Positions 1-10,551 are shown, numbered from the stretch's first letter. The stretch is 64,000 bases of DNA from Escherichia coli (GCF_011045215.1 NZ_CP049201.1), one strand, 5' to 3'. Notes: generated from the sequence alone by a model not told the origin. Numbers and translations: made by a program.

Positions 1-125
1 AAGCGCACGGTCGAATTAAATTTACCGACACCGTACAGTTAGACGAATTTCGCCGTGCGCTTTCGTGTTGTGTGCCTGCTTTTAACCACGTCAGGCGAGG
101 TGGTATCCTTAAAATCACCACAGTT

Positions 126-701
126 TTAAGGATTCATTAAGCAATGTCGCAACCACCAATAAATCCGCTTAAGAACATGAAAATTGATTACTGGTATAAA
201 GCGCTTACAGTTGTTGGCGCTGCGTTGTTTGTCTTTAATGGAACGTCTTTTTTTGACAGATATCCCGTTGTTCCATTGGGTTTTTTGTCCTCCGGCATCT
301 TTTTTATTGGTTTGGGGGAGTGGATTAATCACCCTCTCAAAGTGAGATTTATTGGTCCTGGGGTTTGGACTCGTGGATATAATCGTTCTTCGTGCGCACT
401 CGGCATCATCTTCGACATACTTGGTTGTTTCCTGATTGTTACAGGAGTCGTCAAGTTCTTCTGATGTAAAACCGCAAATGGGGCACGTAACGGGAATTTT
501 GAAAAGCGTTTCTCCGGGTTCCAGAACAAAATTTTCTGCGGTCTGATTTTGCTTCTCATATTTGTGCTCCGCGTCATTGTGAGAGCACATTCTTATTCTG
601 AGTGCCTGTTTAAACTCACTGAAGCTGAGAGCTTCTTCGCCTTCGGCAAGGCCTTCGAAGTATTCTTCGTAAGCCTTTTCCATGATTGTGTCGAAATCCA
701 T
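126..701 (-). CDS. YdfB/YdfC-like zinc-ribbon ORF, apparently fused or extended reading frame
   Basis: Translation MDFDTIMEKAYEEYFEG...PVTCPICGF matches recalled YdfB and YdfC N-terminal regions in one frame with no stop; downstream half is K/N/R-rich and may be non-coding read-through. Start at 701 overlaps ydfA stop. Confidence 0.3.
   Translation of the reverse strand: MDFDTIMEKAYEEYFEGLAEGEEALSFSEFKQALRIRMCSHNDAEHKYEKQNQTAENFVLEPGETLFKIPVTCPICGFTSEELDDSCNNQETTKYVEDDAECARRTIISTSPNPRTNKSHFERVINPLPQTNKKDAGGQKTQWNNGISVKKRRSIKDKQRSANNCKRFIPVINFHVLKRIYWWLRHCLMNP
144..464 (+). CDS. Small membrane protein, three predicted TM helices; embedded antisense to the 126..701 ORF
   Basis: ATG preceded by AAGGA; translation has three hydrophobic stretches (LTVVGAALFVF, LGFLSSGIFFIGLG, ALGIIFDILGCFLIVTGVV). 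Only one of the two overlapping ORFs is likely real. Confidence 0.3.
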   Translation: MSQPPINPLKNMKIDYWYKALTVVGAALFVFNGTSFFDRYPVVPLGFLSSGIFFIGLGEWINHPLKVRFIGPGVWTRGYNRSSCALGIIFDILGCFLIVTGVVKFF

Positions 702-702
702 A

Positions 703-858
703 TCACTCACCTGAGTTTCTTTCCAGCCAGCGACGGGCACCATTTTCGGTTTTAAACGTTTTGCTTTTGGTATACGTCATCGCGGTGAACGTGCCGTCCT
801 GGTTGGGGAACACGCCACATACCAGAGATTCGCTGTTGCCAAGATCGATAGTATCCAT
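703..858 (-). CDS. ydfA: YdfA-like small prophage protein (51 aa)
   Basis: Internal Met start with GAGG 5 nt upstream; translation MDTIDLGNSESLVCGVFPNQDGTFTAMTYTKSKTFKTENGARRWLERNSGE matches recalled Qin YdfA; sits downstream of dicA as in Qin. Confidence 0.5.
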   Translation of the reverse strand: MDTIDLGNSESLVCGVFPNQDGTFTAMTYTKSKTFKTENGARRWLERNSGE

Positions 859-938
859 GCTGACCTCATTTCCCCTTAACGCCTGGGTAGCGGAACTGTT
901 TGCTGAGAACACCGTGCGGTGTCTTGATGGAAATTAAT

Positions 939-988
939 TTAGAATAATCTAACATGATAGGCAAGTGTTTTTTGTTAGGTTAGTCTAA
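939..988. promoter_or_regulatory. Two TTAG-N6-CTAA palindromic operator-like sites (939..952 and 975..988)
   Basis: ttagaataatctaa and ttaggttagtctaa share the architecture of the site at 1486..1499 in the dicA-dicC intergenic region. Confidence 0.4.
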
Positions 989-1026
989 CAAAAAGAGTGA
1001 GCGCAACTAATCACTTGAAAAGAATG

Positions 1027-1434
1027 TTATTTTATTGATTTATTTTTACGCGCTTTAAGCATTTCTTCGAAGAGTTTGTTGAAGTTTTCTACTCTTGCGC
1101 GCATTTCAGACAGCAAGGCTTCCTGCTCGGAAGATGGAAGAGCATCGAATAATTCGATCAATTCTTTGTGGTTGGGAGTTAGCTCTGTTTCCACATGAAG
1201 TTCTTGTGCAGGCACTGGTGCCTTGTCTTCATCACCAAACATTAGCCATGTAGGTGAGCACTTCAGAGCATCCGCTAAAGCAAACAATCGTTTTCCGACT
1301 GGCTGGGTTTCGTCTCTTTCCCATTGTGAAATTGTGACGTGAGCAACTCCAGCGAGGCGCGCAGCTTCTCGTTGTGTTAAGCGTAATTCTTTTCGTCGCG
1401 CCAGAACTCGCTGGCCTAGGGTTCTTGTATCCAT
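1027..1434 (-). CDS. dicA: DicA-family HTH (Cro/C1-type) prophage repressor, 135 aa
   Basis: Translation ...LTQREAARLAGVAHVTISQWERDETQPVGKRLFALADALKCSPTWLMFGDEDK...MRARVENFNKLFEEMLKAR matches recalled DicA in length and motifs; divergent from a Cro-like gene. Confidence 0.85.
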   Translation of the reverse strand: MDTRTLGQRVLARRKELRLTQREAARLAGVAHVTISQWERDETQPVGKRLFALADALKCSPTWLMFGDEDKAPVPAQELHVETELTPNHKELIELFDALPSSEQEALLSEMRARVENFNKLFEEMLKARKNKSIK

Positions 1435-1511
1435 AGTTAGGTAATTCTAATTTTTCTTGACTTAGGTATCCCGCGCACAATAATGTTAGAAAAGTCTAAC
1501 AAGAGGGGGCT
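1435..1511. promoter_or_regulatory. Divergent dicA/dicC promoter-operator region with TTAG-N6-CTAA palindrome at 1486..1499
   Basis: Intergenic 77 bp between divergent repressor genes; ttagaaaagtctaa palindrome; TTGACT (1459..1464) -35-like hexamer. Confidence 0.5.
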
Positions 1512-1742
1512 TTGATGCTTAAAGTTGACGCAATTACTTTTTTTGGCAGCAAAACAAAGCTTGCCAATGCCGCAGGAGTGAGACTGGCAAGTGTTGCTGC
1601 TTGGGGGATACTGGTTCCTGAAGGTCGCGCGATGCGTCTACAGGAGGCATCTGGCGGGGAGCTTCAGTATGATCCCAAAGTTTATGACGAATATCGTAAG
1701 ACGAAGCGGACGGGGCGGTTGAACAATGAAAATCACTCCTGA
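1512..1742 (+). CDS. dicC: DicC-like Cro-type regulator, 76 aa
   Basis: Translation ...FGSKTKLANAAGVRLASVAAWG...EGRAMRLQEASGGELQYDPKVYDEYRK matches recalled DicC; divergent from dicA. Confidence 0.75.
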   Translation: MMLKVDAITFFGSKTKLANAAGVRLASVAAWGILVPEGRAMRLQEASGGELQYDPKVYDEYRKTKRTGRLNNENHS

Positions 1743-2247
1743 ACAGGCTCGTGAGGCTCTGGATGCCTGGATATGTCGACCAGGAATGACACAGGAGCAG
1801 GCGACGATATTAATCACTGAAGCATTCTGGGCTTTGAAAGAGCGCCCGAACATCGATGTTCAGCGTGTCACATATGAAGGTGGCGCGGTTGATCAGCGAG
1901 CGCTTAGCGTTAATCGAGTGAAGATATTCGAACGCTGGAAGGCTATCGACACCAGGGATAAGCGTGAAAAGTTCACAGCGCTAGTGCCTGCAATTATGGA
2001 GGCTATCCGGATTAGTGATTTCAGGTTGTATCGTGAGATCAGTGATGGAAAAAGTATTACGTACATGATCGCCGGGTTAAATAAAGAATATGGCGATGTG
2101 GTGGAATCTGGACTGCTTTTTGCAGATCCTGCCGTTGTAGATCGTGAAACTGACGAACTTATAGAAAAAGCAATTGCTTTCAAGCTTGCGTATCGACAGC
2201 AATACCAACAAAAAGCTGGATGGAATTATGAGTCTTCTTTTTGCTGA
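1726..2247 (+). CDS. Hypothetical early-region protein (cII-position), 173 aa
   Basis: ORF between cro-like gene and replication initiator, overlapping both by a few codons; no motif recognised. Confidence 0.5.
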   Translation: MKITPEQAREALDAWICRPGMTQEQATILITEAFWALKERPNIDVQRVTYEGGAVDQRALSVNRVKIFERWKAIDTRDKREKFTALVPAIMEAIRISDFRLYREISDGKSITYMIAGLNKEYGDVVESGLLFADPAVVDRETDELIEKAIAFKLAYRQQYQQKAGWNYESSFC

Positions 2248-3193
2248 ACGCCCACTGGTTATAAACACGCAGCTGGCAATGAAAATCGGCTTAAACGAAG
2301 CCATTGTTTTGCAACAACTGCACTACTGGTTGAGAGATACCAACTCCGGTATGGAATGTGATGGTGTTCGCTGGATTTATAACACAACGGAACAATGGCT
2401 GGAACAGTTCCCATTCTGGTCAGAGTCAACGTTAAAACGCGCGTTTGCAAGTCTGAAAACGCTGGGGCTTTTGCGTTGTGAAAAGCTCAATAAATCAAAG
2501 CGCGATATGACCAATTTCTACACGATCAACTATGGGAGCGAGCTTTTAGATGGTGGCAAATTGAACGAATCCATCGGTTCAAAATGCGCCGCTCCATCAG
2601 GTCAAAATGACACGATGGAAGAGGTCAAAATGAAACGCTCCATTGGTTCAAAACGACCCAATGTCATCGGGTCAAAATGGCCTGATGATCTTACAGAGAA
2701 TACAACAGAGATTACTACAGAGAATAAAAACACTTTTCGTCCGGAAGCTTCGCAACCGGACCCGCAGACGACTGAACAGGATTTTTTAACCCGGAACCCC
2801 GACGCGGTTGTGTTTAGTGTGAAAAAACGCCAGTGGGGTAGCAGGGAGGATTTGGCGTGTGCGCAGTGGATTTGGGGGCGGATCGTGAACCTTTACGAAC
2901 AGGCTGCCAGCGACGATGGAGAGATCATGCGACCAAAAGAGCCTAACTGGACAGCCTGGGCCAATGACGTGCGCACAATGCGGATGCTGGATGGCAGAAG
3001 CCACAGACAAATTTGCGAAATGTTTGGTCGGGTACAGCGGGATCCATTCTGGGTAAAAAACATCATGAGCCCGTCAAAACTCCGCGAAAAATGGGACGAA
3101 CTGGTCATCCGCCTGGGACGTTCACCTGTACAGCGTTGTGTGAATCATATTTCTGAACCGGATACAGAAATTCCGCCTGGTTTCAGAGGATAA
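2228..3193 (+). CDS. Phage replication initiator (lambda O-like), contains internal origin iterons
   Basis: Internal ATG at 2228 (M19 of ORF 2174..3193); gene contains five 23-bp-spaced iterons plus an AT-rich tract, the hallmark of O-type initiators. Confidence 0.6.
   Translation: MSLLFAERPLVINTQLAMKIGLNEAIVLQQLHYWLRDTNSGMECDGVRWIYNTTEQWLEQFPFWSESTLKRAFASLKTLGLLRCEKLNKSKRDMTNFYTINYGSELLDGGKLNESIGSKCAAPSGQNDTMEEVKMKRSIGSKRPNVIGSKWPDDLTENTTEITTENKNTFRPEASQPDPQTTEQDFLTRNPDAVVFSVKKRQWGSREDLACAQWIWGRIVNLYEQAASDDGEIMRPKEPNWTAWANDVRTMRMLDGRSHRQICEMFGRVQRDPFWVKNIMSPSKLREKWDELVIRLGRSPVQRCVNHISEPDTEIPPGFRG
2570..2679 (+). repeat. Origin iterons: five copies of ~TCCATCGGTTCAAAATG at ~23-bp spacing, followed by AT-rich tract 2690..2740
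   Basis: Copies begin at 2570, 2593, ~2616, 2639, ~2663; then acagagaatacaacagagattactacagagaataaaaac. Confidence 0.6.
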
Positions 3194-3831: not shown

Positions 3832-4470
3832 ATGAAGATGAAAAACATGTCTGAAGTGTTGACCCAAGAAAAGCTTATTTTTGTTGCCCAGAGACTAAAG
3901 GCCCTCGCGCAGTCAGGCCTGACCTATTCAAAAGACGTCTTTGACAAGGAACGCTATGAAGCCTTGCGTGAAATTGCCGCTGGACTGCTGAGTTCGCAGT
4001 TTGATATTAGCCGCAATGATTTGTTTCATGTATCGGAAACGGGTTACGCGACGCCCAAAACAGATGTGCGTGCGTTTATCCTGCGTAATAATCGTATTCT
4101 GATGGTGAAAGAGGCTGCAGATGGATTATGGAGTCTTCCTGGCGGATGGGCAGATGTTGGAGATACACCTTCTGAAGCTGTGCGTCGAGAGGTCGAAGAA
4201 GAAACCGGATTAAAAGTCAGAGTGACTAAACTATTGGGAGTTTGGGATCGTAATCTTCACGGCCATCCGCCTTTACCCTGGCATGTTTACAAGCTGATTT
4301 TTCTCTGTGAAGAAGTAGGTGGCAGCCTGTCAATCAGCCATGAGTCACTCGATGCTGATTTTTTTGATGTCAACGACCTGCCTGAATTGTCGCTTTCAAG
4401 AATTGTGCCTGAGCAGATTGCTGTCAGCCTGAGAGTAGCGAAAGGTGATGAAAAAACATGGTTTGATTAA
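3832..4470 (+). CDS. NUDIX hydrolase with N-terminal extension (ADP-ribose pyrophosphatase-like)
   Basis: Nudix box visible: GGWADVGDTPSEAVRREVEEETGL; ~90 aa N-terminal domain as in ADP-ribose pyrophosphatases. Confidence 0.8.
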   Translation: MKMKNMSEVLTQEKLIFVAQRLKALAQSGLTYSKDVFDKERYEALREIAAGLLSSQFDISRNDLFHVSETGYATPKTDVRAFILRNNRILMVKEAADGLWSLPGGWADVGDTPSEAVRREVEEETGLKVRVTKLLGVWDRNLHGHPPLPWHVYKLIFLCEEVGGSLSISHESLDADFFDVNDLPELSLSRIVPEQIAVSLRVAKGDEKTWFD

Positions 4471-5138: not shown

Positions 5139-5687
5139 TCACGTTACACAATACGCATCAATGGACGCTGAGTAGTTCGCGAGTTTTAAACTTCCAACGT
5201 CCGCTTTTCGCTCAAAGCGGACTAGAAGGTTAGCTTGTATCGGACTTTGCGTATTAAATGACTAGTGGTTGAGCCCCATTTCCACAGAAAAAATCAGAGA
5301 AACTATACCCAATAGTTGTATTGAATCACTGACGAGACAGCCTCATATTCATCAGGACTGGTGTACGTCCAATACAGGAGGTTGTGGTGCTGGTTCTCAA
5401 ATGTGCGCTGGCTATTACGGCTGTAATGGCGATTTATTGTCTTGCTATTGTTCTTATGGATCGCCTTTCTGACTGATTTCATATTGGCGAGGTAACGGTA
5501 GTTAAGTAGAATGGCTGCGGGTGCTTGAGGCTATCTGCCTCGGGCATGAACACCAACGGCAGATAGAGAAAAGCCCCAGTTAACATTACGCGTCCTGCAA
5601 GACGCTTAACATTAATCTGAGGCCAATTTCATGCTAGACACATGTAGGTTAGCCTCTTACGTGCCGAAAGGCAAGGAGAAGCAGGCT

Positions 5688-5843
5688 ATGAAGCAGCAAA
5701 AGGCGATGTTAATCGCCCTGATCGTCATCTGTTTAACCGTCATAGTGACGGCACTGGTAACGAGGAAAGACCTCTGCGAGGTACGAATCCGAACCGGCCA
5801 GACGGAGGTCGCTGTCTTCACAGCTTACGAACCTGAGGAGTAA
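5688..5843 (+). CDS. hokD: Hok/Gef-family type I toxin (HokD/RelF-like), 51 aa
   Basis: Translation MKQQKAMLIALIVICLTVIVTALVTRKDLCEVRIRTGQTEVAVFTAYEPEE matches recalled HokD; in-frame upstream extension from 5631 is mok-like; sok antisense expected ~5600..5700 on minus strand. Confidence 0.85.
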   Translation: MKQQKAMLIALIVICLTVIVTALVTRKDLCEVRIRTGQTEVAVFTAYEPEE

Positions 5844-6059: not shown

Positions 6060-6311
6060 ATGATGAACATCGAAGAACTGCGTAAAATTTTTTGTGAAGA
6101 TGGCCTCTATGCTGTGTGCGTTGAAAATGGAAACATTGTTAGTCATTACCGCATTCTGTGTTTGCGAAAGAATGGGGCTGCGTTAATTAATTTTATGGAT
6201 GCTCGGGTCACGGACGGATTTATCTTGCGCGAAGGTGAGTTTGTCACTTCATTACAGGCACTGAAAGAGATCGGAATAAAAGCAGGCTTTTCAGCTTTTG
6301 CAGAAGAATAA
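6060..6311 (+). CDS. rem: Rem-like small prophage protein, 83 aa
   Basis: 83-aa ORF with GGAAGGA RBS upstream; position after hokD as rem in Qin; length matches recalled Rem. Confidence 0.55.
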   Translation: MMNIEELRKIFCEDGLYAVCVENGNIVSHYRILCLRKNGAALINFMDARVTDGFILREGEFVTSLQALKEIGIKAGFSAFAEE

Positions 6312-7709: not shown

Positions 7710-8069
7710 TTGTGGAGAAAGTTGATGCGTGATATGTATGAAGTTTTAGACCGCTGGGGAGCGTGGGCTGCAGCAGATAACAGTGGTGTGGACTGGCAGC
7801 CGATAGCAGCAGGCTTTAAGGGGCTTTTACCTCATGGTAAAAAAATACGCCTTCAGTGTGATGATGATGAAGGCATCATGATAGACGGCTGTGTTGCCCG
7901 CCTGTGTAAGTATAAACCAGACGAATATGAGCTGATCATTGCTCACTTCGTTATAGGTATTTCACTGCGTTCTATTGCGAAGAGACGCAGATGCTCAGAT
8001 GGAACAATCCGGAAGCAATTGCAGACTGCGTTAGGTTTCATTAATGGGGTTATGTACATGCTCAAGTAA
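7710..8069 (+). CDS. Phage antitermination protein Q-like, 119 aa
   Basis: Small basic protein with Cys cluster and C-terminal HTH-like segment (IAHFVIGISLRSIAKRRRCSDGTIRKQL), at the canonical Q position upstream of the lysis cassette. Confidence 0.6.
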   Translation: MWRKLMRDMYEVLDRWGAWAAADNSGVDWQPIAAGFKGLLPHGKKIRLQCDDDEGIMIDGCVARLCKYKPDEYELIIAHFVIGISLRSIAKRRRCSDGTIRKQLQTALGFINGVMYMLK

Positions 8070-9288
8070 TATTTGGCATTAATTTAAATAAAATACCGAT
8101 GATGCCTATGAATGTAGGCATCCATGCTAGTGATAATAAACTGTCAAGCACCTTATGACAAAAATCCTCATTGTCATTTAATTTTTTAATAGCCTCTTCT
8201 AAGCTCTCTTTAAGATCGCTGGTGTCATCCTTTATTCTATATCTTAATTGTCCAAAAAGTATTTCTTTAGAGTGTGAAATACGAGCAAGTTGTTTTTTTT
8301 GTGACACAATCATTGCAGATGTTATTATTGCTGTGATAATCAATCCAATTAAAGCAATAATCCAATCAGCTTTTGTTGTTAATTTGAAAATAGCAATTGA
8401 ACCAGCTAGTGAAATAGGTATTGCAAGAGCTTTGTTAGAAATTTCTGAAATTATTTTTGACAGTTTTTCTGAGTAATCGAGTTCAGCATCAACAACTTCT
8501 TTCCTTGCTTTATGAAAAGAAAATGCCGATATATAAGCAGCTAAGTTGTTCGTATAAAGTTCGCATATGAAATCCCACTTGTTAATTAACTCGACAAAGG
8601 AATTTCCATTTTTATTAACATACTCAATAACTGTGTTTCTGAAAGTGTTAATCTTTTCAATGTGATGGGCATCAGTAGTAGCTTCACTACTTACTAATGT
8701 TTTAACTAACTGAGTATTTACTGTTTTATCATTAAAAATTTCTTCTGTAATATTTGTTTCAATTACAGCAGAAGAAGATTTAGACTCTGAGTTTAAAATA
8801 AAGACTAAACGATAAAATGTACCTTTGCTATCTTTTTTTATATCATGGAAATGAGCAAGCATGGAAAGAGCATTGATTAGCTCACAAATGTCCTCAATTT
8901 TTTGGATATAAGAAGGTTTTGGTGTTTCTAATGAATAGAAATCATCCTCTATAATATAGAAATACTCTGGCATTATGCCTTTCTTGAGCGTGTTTATTTT
9001 TACAAACTCGTTTTTATTTTTATAAAAACGATTCGCACTTCCTTGTGAAATTTTAAACGAGTATGTAAGAAAATTTCCCTTTTCAGGAAAGTCTTCATAA
9101 TCATAAATTAAATGACCATCCACCTCTATTTCGTCAGCTGTACCAGCTTGAAAAGTAGGGTTCAAAATTCTTTTGAACAATGATTTTACGTCTGCATTAT
9201 AAGCTATACGCGCAGAAAACTTAGCCCCGTCAAAATGAGGATAGCTTGATAATCTATACAGATTAACTATTATACTAAAATCATTCAT
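8062..9288 (-). CDS. Membrane protein, 408 aa, three predicted TM helices in C-terminal third; candidate effector of two-gene cassette
   Basis: ATG overlaps upstream gene stop (ATGA at 9285..9288); hydrophobic helices (ALAIPISLAGSIAIFKL, WIIALIGLIITAIITSAMIV, LLSLAWMPTFIGIIGILFKLM); AT-rich codon usage. Confidence 0.7.
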   Translation of the reverse strand: MNDFSIIVNLYRLSSYPHFDGAKFSARIAYNADVKSLFKRILNPTFQAGTADEIEVDGHLIYDYEDFPEKGNFLTYSFKISQGSANRFYKNKNEFVKINTLKKGIMPEYFYIIEDDFYSLETPKPSYIQKIEDICELINALSMLAHFHDIKKDSKGTFYRLVFILNSESKSSSAVIETNITEEIFNDKTVNTQLVKTLVSSEATTDAHHIEKINTFRNTVIEYVNKNGNSFVELINKWDFICELYTNNLAAYISAFSFHKARKEVVDAELDYSEKLSKIISEISNKALAIPISLAGSIAIFKLTTKADWIIALIGLIITAIITSAMIVSQKKQLARISHSKEILFGQLRYRIKDDTSDLKESLEEAIKKLNDNEDFCHKVLDSLLSLAWMPTFIGIIGILFKLMPNIT

Positions 9289-10451
9289 TCTTTATCTTCT
9301 TCATTACTCGGGTTATCAGTTTCTTTCAACGCTCTTCTTATCTTAGTTAATGCTTCAACAGGCAAATTATTAAATGTTAGGCTTTGGTTTTCGTCATCAT
9401 AATATATTTTAGCATCAGTTGTGACACCGAGTAAATCCTTGTCGAAGTGAAAGCTCAATGATGGGGTTTTATATATCACATTGCGGATTTTATCTAAGGA
9501 GTTTTTATTGATTACGAACTCTGATGGGATTCTGACTTCCTCACTATTGAGGTGTTTCATTAATTTATCAACAAGTTCTGTTTTTTCTTCCTCTTTTAAA
9601 TAGGACATATGGCCTGAAGCAAGCGATTCGATATCAGAAAGCCTTGCAGAGTGCTCGTTGTCAAATTGCTTTTCTAAGTATTTGATAACATCATTTCTAA
9701 ATGACTCTGCTTGATTTTTTAAAAGAGGTTCTTTCTTAAAGAAACGCCTTATTTCATCTGGTAACTTACGGGTTGCGCCTGCTGAAGCAATCCCCTTGTC
9801 ACATCCTAATGCTGCTATAAAATATGCTGCCGCTGACTGTCCCGTAGTTTTGCTTATAAAGCTTAGATAACTTAAGTCTGTTTTTTTTAAATCATCTGCT
9901 TTTTGGTATTCTTCATAATATCTGAAATTTATTTTTGCTGCTTGGTTAATATTACCAAGTTCTAAGTGAATCATTTCCTCTGGCTCTAAATTTTCACTAA
10001 TAGTTACGCCATTAGTTTTTTTGATCATTGTAACCAATAGATAACGGAAACCAGATAAAATATAATCAGTAAAAACAACATATCCTCCAGAAGCCCAAAT
10101 CTGCTCTTGAGCAGATTTATACATTTGTTTCATAACTTCCTTCGATAATTCAATGAAATCATTTGAAACAGATTGTTGAACTAAAGAGTATTTATGAAAT
10201 AGTTCTGGTATAGGGCCTTGTTTTGTTTTATTTTTAATAAAAACACCATAATGCGCTGAGTTCCCTTTTGAACCATACAAATCAATAACACCGTCTACTA
10301 ATTTTTTTACTATATCATTTGTTTTATCTAGTTCTGTATCACGAAGATTGTATGGTTTGGAGTGATCGAAGTCTTTATTAGATTCTTTTAAGAGCTCATG
10401 AACGATTACGTGGCGTATGCTTGCTTTGCTCATTTTTTTGGTCAATTCCAT
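9285..10451 (-). CDS. NdpA/YejK-like (NA37 family) nucleoid-associated-protein homologue, 388 aa; candidate sensor of two-gene cassette
   Basis: Motif-level resemblance to recalled E. coli YejK: N-terminal IRHVIVHELLK, central GGYVVFTDY...YLLVTMIK...ISENLEP, YLSFISKTTGQSAAAYF, C-terminal SLTFNNLP. AT-rich (~30% G+C in a 60-nt spot check). Confidence 0.75.
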   Translation of the reverse strand: MELTKKMSKASIRHVIVHELLKESNKDFDHSKPYNLRDTELDKTNDIVKKLVDGVIDLYGSKGNSAHYGVFIKNKTKQGPIPELFHKYSLVQQSVSNDFIELSKEVMKQMYKSAQEQIWASGGYVVFTDYILSGFRYLLVTMIKKTNGVTISENLEPEEMIHLELGNINQAAKINFRYYEEYQKADDLKKTDLSYLSFISKTTGQSAAAYFIAALGCDKGIASAGATRKLPDEIRRFFKKEPLLKNQAESFRNDVIKYLEKQFDNEHSARLSDIESLASGHMSYLKEEEKTELVDKLMKHLNSEEVRIPSEFVINKNSLDKIRNVIYKTPSLSFHFDKDLLGVTTDAKIYYDDENQSLTFNNLPVEALTKIRRALKETDNPSNEEDKE

Positions 10452-10551
10452 GCGGTTAAGCTAACAATTGTAAAGAGCATAATAAATTACTAACGCGTAC
10501 GCAAAAACTATCATAATCTGTTAAGAGTGGTTACTTCGCCACACAGCTTAA

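What the first reader, a model, noticed from the sequence alone, without database searches (positions are those of the whole stretch)
939..1499. Three TTAG-N6-CTAA operator-like palindromes flanking the dicA repressor gene
Seen in sequence: ttagaataatctaa (939..952), ttaggttagtctaa (975..988) and ttagaaaagtctaa (1486..1499) share an identical half-site architecture. One lies in the dicA-dicC divergent promoter region and two lie downstream of dicA, upstream of the ydfA-like leftward genes, suggesting repressor control of both rightward and leftward early transcription.
Basis: seen in the sequence. Interest (0 to 1): 0.35.

Follow-up and report, generated by a model that had tools for sequence, protein, structure and literature searches.

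The report
Operators of a Qin-type prophage switch
The short palindromes around the dicA-like repressor gene are real and far from chance (there are four, not three), and they are almost certainly the repressor/Cro binding sites of a Qin/P22-type prophage immunity switch, a system already described in E. coli K-12, so this is ordinary.

Summary
These are the only four exact matches in 64 kb. About 0.45 are expected in the whole window and about 0.01 in the two intergenic regions.

Each site sits at a promoter:
- 1486-1499 covers the -10/+1 of the rightward dicC promoter.
- 939-952 lies in the spacer/-10 of the leftward ydfA (dicB-operon) promoter.
- 975-988 lies just upstream of that promoter's -35.
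- 1437-1450 overlaps a putative dicA -10.

The half-sites match the K-12 Qin operator Oc (TTGTTAG-N6-CTAACAA). Oc is bound by DicA in vivo, and an A-to-C change in CTAA abolishes that binding. The half-sites also match the published DicC ChIP-seq motif.

Repressor alleles 50-94% identical to this one keep TTAG/CTAA at the same four positions while the spacers drift. Alleles with a different recognition helix carry a different palindrome (TGAG-AAAA-CTCA) at the same positions.

The layout is collinear with P22 immC, but the OR2-position site is degenerate.

This is a new member of a known kind and of low interest. Binding in this allele has not been tested.

The parts
1486..1499 (.). Operator equivalent to K-12 Oc and P22 OR1. 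Core TTAGAAAAGTCTAA; full palindrome 1484-1501, TGTTAGA-aaag-TCTAACA.
   Evidence: It starts 2 bp after the -10 of dicCp. It aligns with K-12 Oc, TTGTTAGTTATGACTAACAA. Oc is annotated at -8..+12 of dicCp and titrates DicA (PMC3441716; 10.1101/2025.05.13.653802).
1437..1450 (.). It is equivalent to K-12 Oa and P22 OR3 and overlaps the putative dicA -10.
   Evidence: Its half-sites are invariant in five alleles. It is in the same register as P22 OR3 next to the c2 start codon. K-12 Oa was not bound by DicA in the in vivo assay of PMC3441716, so it may be mainly a DicC site.
939..952 (.). Promoter-proximal operator of the leftward ydfA/dicB-operon promoter: TTAGAATAATCTAA.
   Evidence: It lies in the spacer and -10 of the putative promoter TTGCCT-17-TAAATT on the - strand (my reading). 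It is positionally equivalent to K-12 TTAGCCATGACTAA inside TTGACC-17-TAATCT.
975..988 (.). Promoter-distal operator of the leftward promoter: TTAGGTTAGTCTAA, the core of the perfect 26-bp palindrome 969-994.
   Evidence: It starts 11 bp upstream of the putative -35. The equivalent site has one mismatch in GN06098 and PPompW and two in K-12.
1462..1475 (.). Degenerate site at the P22 OR2 position: TTAGGTATCCCGCG. Only the left half-site is kept.
   Evidence: The same position has 7 of 8 core bases in alleles L003 and L008.
1457..1484 (+). Rightward promoter dicCp (PR-like): TTGACT-16-AATAAT.
   Evidence: 10 of 12 consensus matches. The -35 is invariant in five alleles. It is collinear with P22 PR. 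The transcription start was not measured here.
936..964 (-). Putative leftward promoter dicBp (PL-like): TTGCCT (964-959), 17 bp, TAAATT (941-936).
   Evidence: Read. It has 8 of 12 consensus matches, below the threshold of the scan. It occupies the same position as K-12 dicBp TTGACC-17-TAATCT. Inferred.
1444..1449 (-). Putative -10 (TAGAAT) of the dicA maintenance promoter, 9 nt before the ATG. This implies a near-leaderless mRNA.
   Evidence: Read. It is in the same register as TAAGAT before P22 c2. No good -35 is present, in line with PMC3441716 (no obvious dicA promoter; activation by DicA at Oc). Inferred.
1027..1434 (-). DicA-like repressor, 135 aa, the product annotated as WP_000381212.1 in relatives. 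It has an HTH_3 domain and no autocleavage domain.
   Evidence: P22 C2 N-terminal domain, E 1e-18. Recognition helix AHVTISQWER.
1515..1742 (+). DicC-like Cro protein, 75 aa.
   Evidence: 84% identical to K-12 DicC; Pfam P22_Cro, 5e-12.
1726..2247 (+). YdaT/YdfX-like gene, second gene of the rightward operon.
   Evidence: YdaT_toxin; annotation of relatives.
703..858 (-). ydfA-like gene (DUF1391), first gene of the leftward operon controlled by sites 939 and 975.
   Evidence: 8.8e-28. In relatives, dicB and ydfD lie further left, beyond the window start.
6060..6311 (+). rem homologue, 83 aa, the likely antirepressor of the DicA-like protein.
   Evidence: ORF. A relative annotates 'protein Rem' at the collinear position. 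Rem relieves DicA repression in K-12 (PMC10448788). Not compared residue by residue here.

Best explanation
The four palindromes are the cores of 18-20-bp operators (consensus about wwtgTTAGrww | wwyCTAAcaww) of a Qin-type, P22-immC-like immunity switch. Dimers of the DicA-like repressor (1027-1434) bind them, and very probably dimers of the DicC-like Cro protein (1515-1742) as well.

Proposed role of each site:
- 1486-1499 covers the -10/+1 of the rightward promoter. An occupied site blocks RNA polymerase and silences dicC, ydaT and the replication genes. By analogy with K-12 Oc, it may also activate dicA.
- 939-952 lies in the spacer/-10 of the leftward promoter and silences the ydfA...dicF-dicB operon.
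- 975-988 lies just upstream of that promoter's -35 and is an auxiliary site.
- 1437-1450 overlaps the putative dicA -10 and 5' end. It would serve negative autoregulation or shut-off of dicA by DicC, the OR3 role.

The repressor has no RecA-cleavable domain, so derepression would go through the Rem-like antirepressor (6060-6311) or through flipping of the DicA/DicC bistable switch.

Shown here: the sites exist, are non-random, are conserved, covary with the recognition helix, and sit at predicted promoters. Inferred: which protein binds which site, the affinities, the transcription starts, and activation.
For: Statistics: 4 exact sites against 0.45 expected in 64 kb and 0.011 expected in the two intergenic regions, with 0 of 20,000 shuffles reaching 3.

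Anatomy: dicCp is TTGACT-16-AATAAT at 1457-1484, directly abutting the 1486 site. The 939 site lies inside the putative leftward promoter.

Identity with known operators: K-12 Oc is TTGTTAG-N6-CTAACAA. It is bound by DicA in vivo, binding is lost with a single A-to-C change in CTAA, and a multicopy Oc is not tolerated (PMC3441716). A Reg-Seq library independently shows DicA titration at -8..+12 of dicCp. K-12 DicC ChIP-seq has its strongest peaks on either side of dicA, with motif TT(A/C/T)G...C(G/A/T)AA. Deleting dicA derepresses dicBp 22-fold.

Comparative evidence: in five alleles whose repressors are 55-94% identical to this one, TTAG and CTAA are essentially invariant at the same four positions: 140 of 144 core bases, against freely varying spacers. 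In five further loci annotated with the same repressor product, 0 of 32 half-site bases vary, against 4 of 24 spacer bases. Alleles L004-L006 have recognition helix SGSSISLWES instead of (A/S)HV(T/S)(I/V)SQWER, and a changed DicC helix. At the same positions they carry (T/A)TGAGAAAACTCAA palindromes instead.

Protein homology: HTH_3 and P22_Cro domains. The best solved relative is the P22 C2 DNA-binding domain, with V33 and Q37 conserved; PMC5175364 describes an unnumbered conserved valine and Q37 in the recognition helix at the DNA interface. The P22 c2-cro region is collinear, with OR3, the -35 TTGACT, OR2 and OR1 in the same register.
Against: No binding or expression data exist for this allele. 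In K-12, DicA bound only Oc and not Oa or Om in the one in vivo assay reported, so the 1437 site may not be a DicA site. Direct binding of DicA to the dicBp sites is inferred from genetics, not footprinted, in the papers I could read. The leftward promoter and the dicA promoter fall below the consensus-scan threshold, and their starts are unmapped. Paired sites are 36 and 49 bp apart centre to centre, which is not an obvious in-phase cooperative arrangement. A host TetR-family factor (YjdC) and H-NS/Cnu also act at the K-12 dic operator region.
Confidence: 0.85

Rival explanations
1. Division of labour: only the long-armed sites (969-994 and 1484-1501) are DicA operators. The short-armed sites (939-952 and 1437-1450) are mainly DicC (Cro) sites or are non-functional for the repressor.
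For: K-12 DicA bound Oc but not Oa or Om in vivo. The DicC ChIP motif tolerates a looser core. The arms of 939 and 1437 extend beyond 4 bp on one side only. DicC represses dicA 48-84-fold, which needs a site over the dicA promoter.
Against: The TTAG/CTAA cores of the short-armed sites are as invariant across alleles as those of the long-armed ones. The 939 site is the one placed to block the leftward promoter, which DicA represses in K-12. In K-12 it is the distal site that is degenerate.
Confidence: 0.3
2. Chance palindromes in AT-rich promoter DNA with no protein-binding role.
For: The intergenic regions are AT-rich (GC 0.38-0.40). TTAGAAT resembles a -10 element.
Against: 0 of 20,000 local shuffles give even 3 sites. 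The half-sites are conserved across alleles with drifting spacers, and they covary with the recognition helix. They are identical to an operator with in vivo evidence of DicA binding.
Confidence: 0.01
3. RNA-level elements: the palindromes act as hairpins, for example 969-994 as the dicA terminator or as a leader structure.
For: 969-994 lies 33 nt downstream of the dicA stop codon and could form a 10-bp stem.
Against: The stem is almost all A/U and has no U tract on the dicA strand. The terminator scan finds nothing there. There are no Rfam matches in 1-3000. The same core recurs at untranscribed promoter positions. The spacer, which would be the loop, and not the stem register is what varies, and the equivalent K-12 site is not self-complementary.
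Confidence: 0.03
4. The sites are used mainly by host factors, such as the TetR-family YjdC or the H-NS/Cnu complex, rather than by the prophage's own repressor.
For: YjdC ChIP-qPCR enrichment at the K-12 dic locus. Cnu(K9E)/H-NS antagonises DicA at Oc.
Against: The site sequence covaries with the prophage repressor and Cro alleles, which a host factor cannot explain. Loss of K-12 dicA abolishes binding to Oc in vivo.
Confidence: 0.04

Closest known systems
DicA/DicC immunity locus of the Qin cryptic prophage of E. coli K-12 (operators Oc, Oa, Om and the dicBp operators; Bejar et al. 1986/1988, Yun et al. 2012)
   Same: The gene order ydfA <- dicA <- | -> dicC -> ydfX/ydaT is the same. The 14-bp frame TTAG-N6-CTAA is the same, and the sites occupy the same four positions relative to the genes and promoters. 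Both have a 135-aa repressor without a cleavage domain and a rem gene downstream.
   Different: The repressor is only 57% identical and all spacers differ. Here the distal leftward site is a perfect 26-bp palindrome, whereas in K-12 it is degenerate (TATG...CTAA). The replication and late regions are intact here (terminase, portal and tail genes in relatives), whereas K-12 Qin is a remnant.
immC region of Salmonella phage P22 (c2 repressor, cro, OR1-OR2-OR3)
   Same: The N-terminal DNA-binding domain is homologous (45% identity over 80 aa; PDB 1adr and 2r1j are the best hits). The Cro protein belongs to Pfam P22_Cro. The intergenic region is collinear base for base: start codon, AG, a 14-bp palindrome, the -35 TTGACT, then a palindrome after the -10. 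The half-sites are one helical turn apart, and the P22 consensus is ATTTAAGATATCTTAAAT.
   Different: The half-site is TTAG(N) rather than TTAAG. The OR2-position site is degenerate, so there are two sites instead of three. The repressor lacks the C-terminal domain of C2: it is 135 aa against 216 aa and ends where C2 continues, with no family beyond the helix-turn-helix ones matched. Induction is therefore expected through an antirepressor rather than RecA.
Lambda cI/Cro switch with OR and OL
   Same: The logic is the same: divergent repressor and cro genes, shared operators at PR/PRM, and a second operator set at the leftward early promoter. K-12 papers describe DicA/DicC as a bistable switch.
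   Different: There is no sequence relationship between the operators, there are two sites per side rather than three, there is no cleavable repressor, and the spacing of 36 and 49 bp differs from lambda's adjacent 17-bp sites (the lambda spacing is from my own knowledge).
RacR/YdaS/YdaT region of the Rac prophage and CP-933P
   Same: The architecture is analogous: a repressor, divergent from a Cro-like gene followed by a YdaT (CII-like) gene, with several operators in the intergenic region.
   Different: RacR is not the protein found here, and its operator sequences were not compared. The public record named 'Escherichia phage Rac' (MN652886) that carries a 94% identical dicA has a DicA/DicC-type region, not a RacR-type one.

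Membership tests
Qin-type DicA/DicC operators (K-12 Oc type) | Inverted repeat with TTAG / CTAA cores 6 bp apart, extended as TTGTTAG...CTAACAA | tested here: met
   against the Oc sequence and K-12 DNA. Two of the four sites have the extended arms.
Qin-type DicA/DicC operators (K-12 Oc type) | One site covers the -10/+1 of the dicC promoter (annotated at -8..+12 in K-12) | tested here: met
   The predicted promoter lies at 1457-1484 and the palindrome at 1484-1501. The transcription start here is predicted, not measured.
Qin-type DicA/DicC operators (K-12 Oc type) | Divergent dicA-like HTH repressor and dicC-like Cro genes flank the site | tested here: met
Qin-type DicA/DicC operators (K-12 Oc type) | A second operator set lies at the promoter of the ydfA...dicB operon downstream of dicA | tested here: met
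   Sites 939 and 975 align with the K-12 dicBp region. dicB itself lies outside the window but is present in relatives.
Qin-type DicA/DicC operators (K-12 Oc type) | Sequence-specific binding by the cognate DicA and/or DicC protein | not testable with these tools
   Only indirect support is available: covariation of the sites with the recognition helices.
P22-type immC operator region | Repressor DNA-binding domain homologous to P22 C2, and Cro of the P22_Cro family | tested here: met
P22-type immC operator region | Three adjacent operators (OR1, OR2, OR3) between the repressor and cro genes | tested here: not met
   Only two full sites are present. The OR2 position (1462-1475) keeps one half-site.
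P22-type immC operator region | Half-site TTAAG with a 4-bp centre (consensus ATTTAAGATATCTTAAAT) | tested here: not met
   The cores here are TTAG-N6-CTAA, in the same 14-bp outer frame.
P22-type immC operator region | Repressor with the C-terminal domain of P22 C2 (the RecA-dependent self-cleavage and oligomerisation role of that domain is from my own knowledge) | tested here: not met
   The protein is 135 aa, only helix-turn-helix families are matched, and it ends where C2 continues. K-12 DicA lacks the Ala-Gly cleavage bond.

The most novel reading that the evidence does not exclude
Three or four repressor alleles only 55-66% identical to the window's (K-12 Qin, this allele, which is also in E. 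coli B, and the GN06098/PPompW allele) share the same recognition helix and the same TTAG/CTAA cores. The spacers drift even among loci annotated with the identical repressor product. These alleles may therefore form one cross-recognising immunity supergroup. Repressors and Cro proteins of co-resident Qin-like or Rac-like cryptic prophages, and of incoming phages, would then regulate one another's dicB/dicF cell-division inhibitors. This would run on a minimal two-operator switch that lost the OR2 site together with the cooperative, cleavable C-terminal domain.
Probability: 0.3. Interest if true: 0.4.

Novelty: new member of a known kind. Interest (0 to 1): 0.14.

Why it matters
The finding adds little. 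It annotates the operators and promoters of a common DicA allele. About one in ten complete E. coli genomes hold this region (553 of 5,426), including an E. coli B derivative. Databases label its genes only as 'helix-turn-helix domain-containing protein' and 'Cro/CI family transcriptional regulator'.

Knowing the sites helps to predict when the toxic dicB/dicF cell-division inhibitors of such prophages are released. It also explains why multicopy clones of these intergenic regions may be toxic, through repressor titration as in K-12. Finally, it frames a testable question about cross-immunity between prophage repressor alleles that share half-sites.

Tried and rejected
- One-mismatch versions of the motif elsewhere in the window: 22 found against 16.4 expected. 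The apparent cluster at 8031-10391 lies in a GC 0.30-0.35 island, so it is chance.
- Extended motif TGTTAG-N6-CTAACA with up to 2 mismatches: not enriched beyond the known sites.
- Terminator and RNA readings: the terminator scan finds nothing at the sites, there are no Rfam matches in 1-3000, and the ydfA leader fold is not better than shuffles (z = 0.56).
- Cronobacter phage phiES15, whose DicA-like repressor is 52% identical with helix KSSVSVFKWENG: no TTAG-N6-CTAA. It has only TTAG-N11-CTAA and an everted ACTAAC-N4-GTTAGT, which I could not interpret.
- PMC10636207 was a false text match ('dicarboxylate').
- The original 1986 sequence paper (PMC311701) is not held, so the original definitions of Oa, Om and Oc were taken second-hand from PMC3441716.
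- PMC8249747 lists DicA and DicC only as prophage regulators and gives no sites.

Full report
**Observation.** Reading the sequence and a pattern search confirm TTAGAATAATCTAA at 939-952, TTAGGTTAGTCTAA at 975-988 and TTAGAAAAGTCTAA at 1486-1499. These four are the only exact matches in the 64-kb window. Whole-window dinucleotide shuffles give a mean of 0.45, and none of 100 reach four. The intergenic DNA is AT-rich, so I also shuffled only the two intergenic regions (168 and 80 bp, GC 0.40 and 0.38). The mean was 0.011 sites, and 0 of 20,000 shuffles reached three. One-mismatch matches elsewhere are at chance level, 22 against 16.4 expected, and their apparent cluster at 8.0-10.4 kb lies in a GC 0.30-0.35 island. 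Two sites have longer arms: 969-994 is a perfect 10-6-10 palindrome and 1484-1501 is 7-4-7.

**Genes and promoters.**
- The ORF at 1027-1434 (-) is a 135-aa helix-turn-helix protein, 57% identical to K-12 DicA.
- The ORF at 1515-1742 (+) is 84% identical to K-12 DicC and matches Pfam P22_Cro.
- The ORF at 1726-2247 (+) is YdaT-like, and the ORF at 703-858 (-) is YdfA/DUF1391.
- Annotated relatives show that the window begins inside a Qin-like lambdoid prophage. dicB and ydfD lie just left of the window start, and replication, rem, Q, lysis, terminase, portal and tail genes lie to the right.
- A rem-like ORF lies at 6060-6311.

The consensus scan finds one promoter, TTGACT-16-AATAAT at 1457-1484 on the + strand. 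The 1484-1501 palindrome begins at its last base and so covers the expected start site. On the - strand I read TTGCCT (964-959), 17 bp, TAAATT (941-936). This has 8 of 12 consensus matches and is below the scan threshold, but it is in the same place as K-12 TTGACC-17-TAATCT. The 939 site fills its spacer and overlaps its -10, and the 975 site starts 11 bp upstream of its -35. The reverse complement of the 1437 site is TTAGAATTACCTAA, which contains TAGAAT 9 nt before the dicA ATG. That is a plausible -10 for a near-leaderless maintenance transcript, but it is inference only.

**Comparison with K-12 and the literature.** The K-12 Qin locus (L001) has TTAG-N6-CTAA at the equivalent three positions, and a degenerate TATG...CTAA at the fourth.

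- Yun et al. 2012 (PMC3441716) showed in vivo that DicA binds Oc, TTGTTAGTCATAACTAACAA. A single A-to-C change in CTAACAA abolishes binding. The dicA-dicC promoter fragment cannot be cloned at high copy unless Oc is mutated. Oa and Om were not bound in their assay. DicA at Oc represses dicC and activates dicA.
- A Reg-Seq preprint independently saw selection for mutations in the annotated DicA site at -8..+12 of dicCp.
- Ragunathan et al. 2023 (PMC10448788) showed 22-fold derepression of dicBp on dicA deletion, DicC-dependent bistability, and Rem as antirepressor.
- A DicC ChIP-seq study (PMC11430063) found the strongest peaks on either side of dicA, with a palindromic motif TT(A/C/T)G...C(G/A/T)AA.

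The motif in this window is therefore the known DicA/DicC operator core.

**Comparative test.** I collected the same region from other alleles:
- a 94%-identical repressor in a record named 'phage Rac' (L009);
- 66%-identical alleles in strain GN06098 and prophage PPompW (L003, L008);
- K-12 (55-57%);
- three loci with 50%-identical repressors (L004-L006).

In the first four allele types the TTAG and CTAA cores are essentially invariant at the same four positions while the six central bases differ: 140 of 144 core bases match, and central positions are only constrained to be A/T-rich. Five further loci annotated with the same repressor product as this allele show 15 variable positions in the 656-bp region. 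None falls in the 32 half-site bases, four fall in the 24 spacer bases and nine fall elsewhere in the intergenic DNA. Most tellingly, alleles L004-L006 have a different recognition helix (SGSSISLWES instead of (A/S)HV(T/S)(I/V)SQWER) and a changed DicC helix. At the same positions they carry TTGAGAAAACTCAA / ATGAGAAAACTCAA palindromes instead. Sites that change together with the DNA-reading helices of the neighbouring repressor and Cro genes are what operators of an immunity module are expected to do.

**Relationship to P22.** The best solved relatives are the P22 C2 DNA-binding domain structures (1adr and 2r1j, E about 1e-18). V33 and Q37 are conserved; PMC5175364 describes an unnumbered conserved valine and Q37 in the recognition helix at the DNA interface. 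The P22 c2-cro intergenic region is collinear with this one almost base for base. The order is: start codon, AG, a 14-bp palindrome (TTAAGTCATCTTAA, the OR3 position), the -35 TTGACT, the OR2 palindrome, the -10, then the OR1 palindrome. The OR1-3 names are from my own knowledge of P22. The published consensus ATTTAAGATATCTTAAAT with TTAAG half-sites and a 4-bp centre is from PMC5175364. On this map, 1437-1450 is the OR3 equivalent and 1486-1499 the OR1 equivalent. The OR2 position (1462-1475, TTAGGTATCCCGCG) keeps only one half-site here, although it has 7 of 8 core bases in L003 and L008. The repressor lacks the C-terminal half of C2. That fits a two-site rather than a cooperative three-site arrangement, and induction through an antirepressor rather than RecA cleavage.

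**Mechanism and confidence.** The per-site assignments are less certain. The 1486 site as repressor of dicC is strong. The 939 site as repressor of the leftward promoter is good. The 975 site as an auxiliary site and the 1437 site as an autoregulatory or DicC shut-off site are inferences. K-12 Oa was reported not to bind DicA, which is why I hold a division-of-labour rival at about 0.3. Chance, RNA-hairpin/terminator and host-factor-only readings are contradicted.

**Novelty.** The kind of system has been known since 1986-88, and the core motif is identical to the K-12 operator. What is new is only the annotation of the sites for this allele, the fourth site, the loss of the OR2-position site, and the observation that several diverged alleles share half-sites. 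This allele's region is present in 553 of 5,426 complete E. coli genomes, including an E. coli B derivative. Verdict: a new member of a known kind, low interest (0.14).

Noticed in passing
window 909-922: The inverted repeat ACACCG-tg-CGGTGT lies in the predicted 5' leader of the ydfA/dicB-operon transcript. It is invariant in all alleles compared, including K-12, although the operators next to it differ. It could form a small 5' hairpin, but the leader as a whole does not fold better than shuffles (z = 0.56).
   Followed up: partly
window 126-743: A 106-aa ORF at 144-464 (+) looks membrane-like and has no Pfam match. It overlaps, antisense, a long - strand ORF (126-743) whose start resembles YdfB. 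Most genomes with this immunity allele match only from about position 600 rightwards, so this left segment is a variable insertion.
   Followed up: partly
L004-L006 (E. coli XB2, MN06021, FHI_NMBU_10), intergenic regions either side of the dicA-like gene: A second specificity class of the same module. The repressor helix is SGSSISLWES and the DicC helix is GVDPSAVSQW. Palindromes (T/A)TGAGAAAACTCAA replace TTAG-N6-CTAA at the same positions.
   Followed up: partly
window 1432-1450, - strand: The dicA-like gene has no recognisable Shine-Dalgarno sequence (TTACCTAACTATG), and a -10-like TAGAAT ends 9 nt before the ATG. This suggests a leaderless or near-leaderless maintenance transcript. P22 c2 has TAAGAT in the same register.
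   Followed up: partly
window 5631-5843 and 6060-6311: A hokD-like ORF and an 83-aa rem-like ORF lie about 4.5 kb to the right of the switch. In K-12, Rem is the antirepressor of DicA.
   Followed up: partly
window about 8000-10500: An AT-rich island (GC 0.30-0.35 against 0.49 for the window) lies after the Q-like antiterminator gene. In a relative it holds lipocalin-family and DUF523/DUF1722 genes, so it is probably a moron region. It accounts for the cluster of one-mismatch motif hits.
   Followed up: partly
window 3832-4470: A 212-aa ORF in the rightward early operon is annotated as a NUDIX hydrolase in a relative and is followed there by a HAD-family hydrolase. This is unusual cargo between the replication genes and hokD/rem.
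   Followed up: no
L007 (Cronobacter phage phiES15) 548-900: The record annotates no cro gene between the DicA-like repressor and cII. However, the 353-bp 'intergenic' stretch contains a DicC-like reading frame (MYTKSVISHFGSKAAIARALGISQVAVTRWGETVPEKRAARLDHITNGVLKYDPDFYEA...).
   Followed up: no
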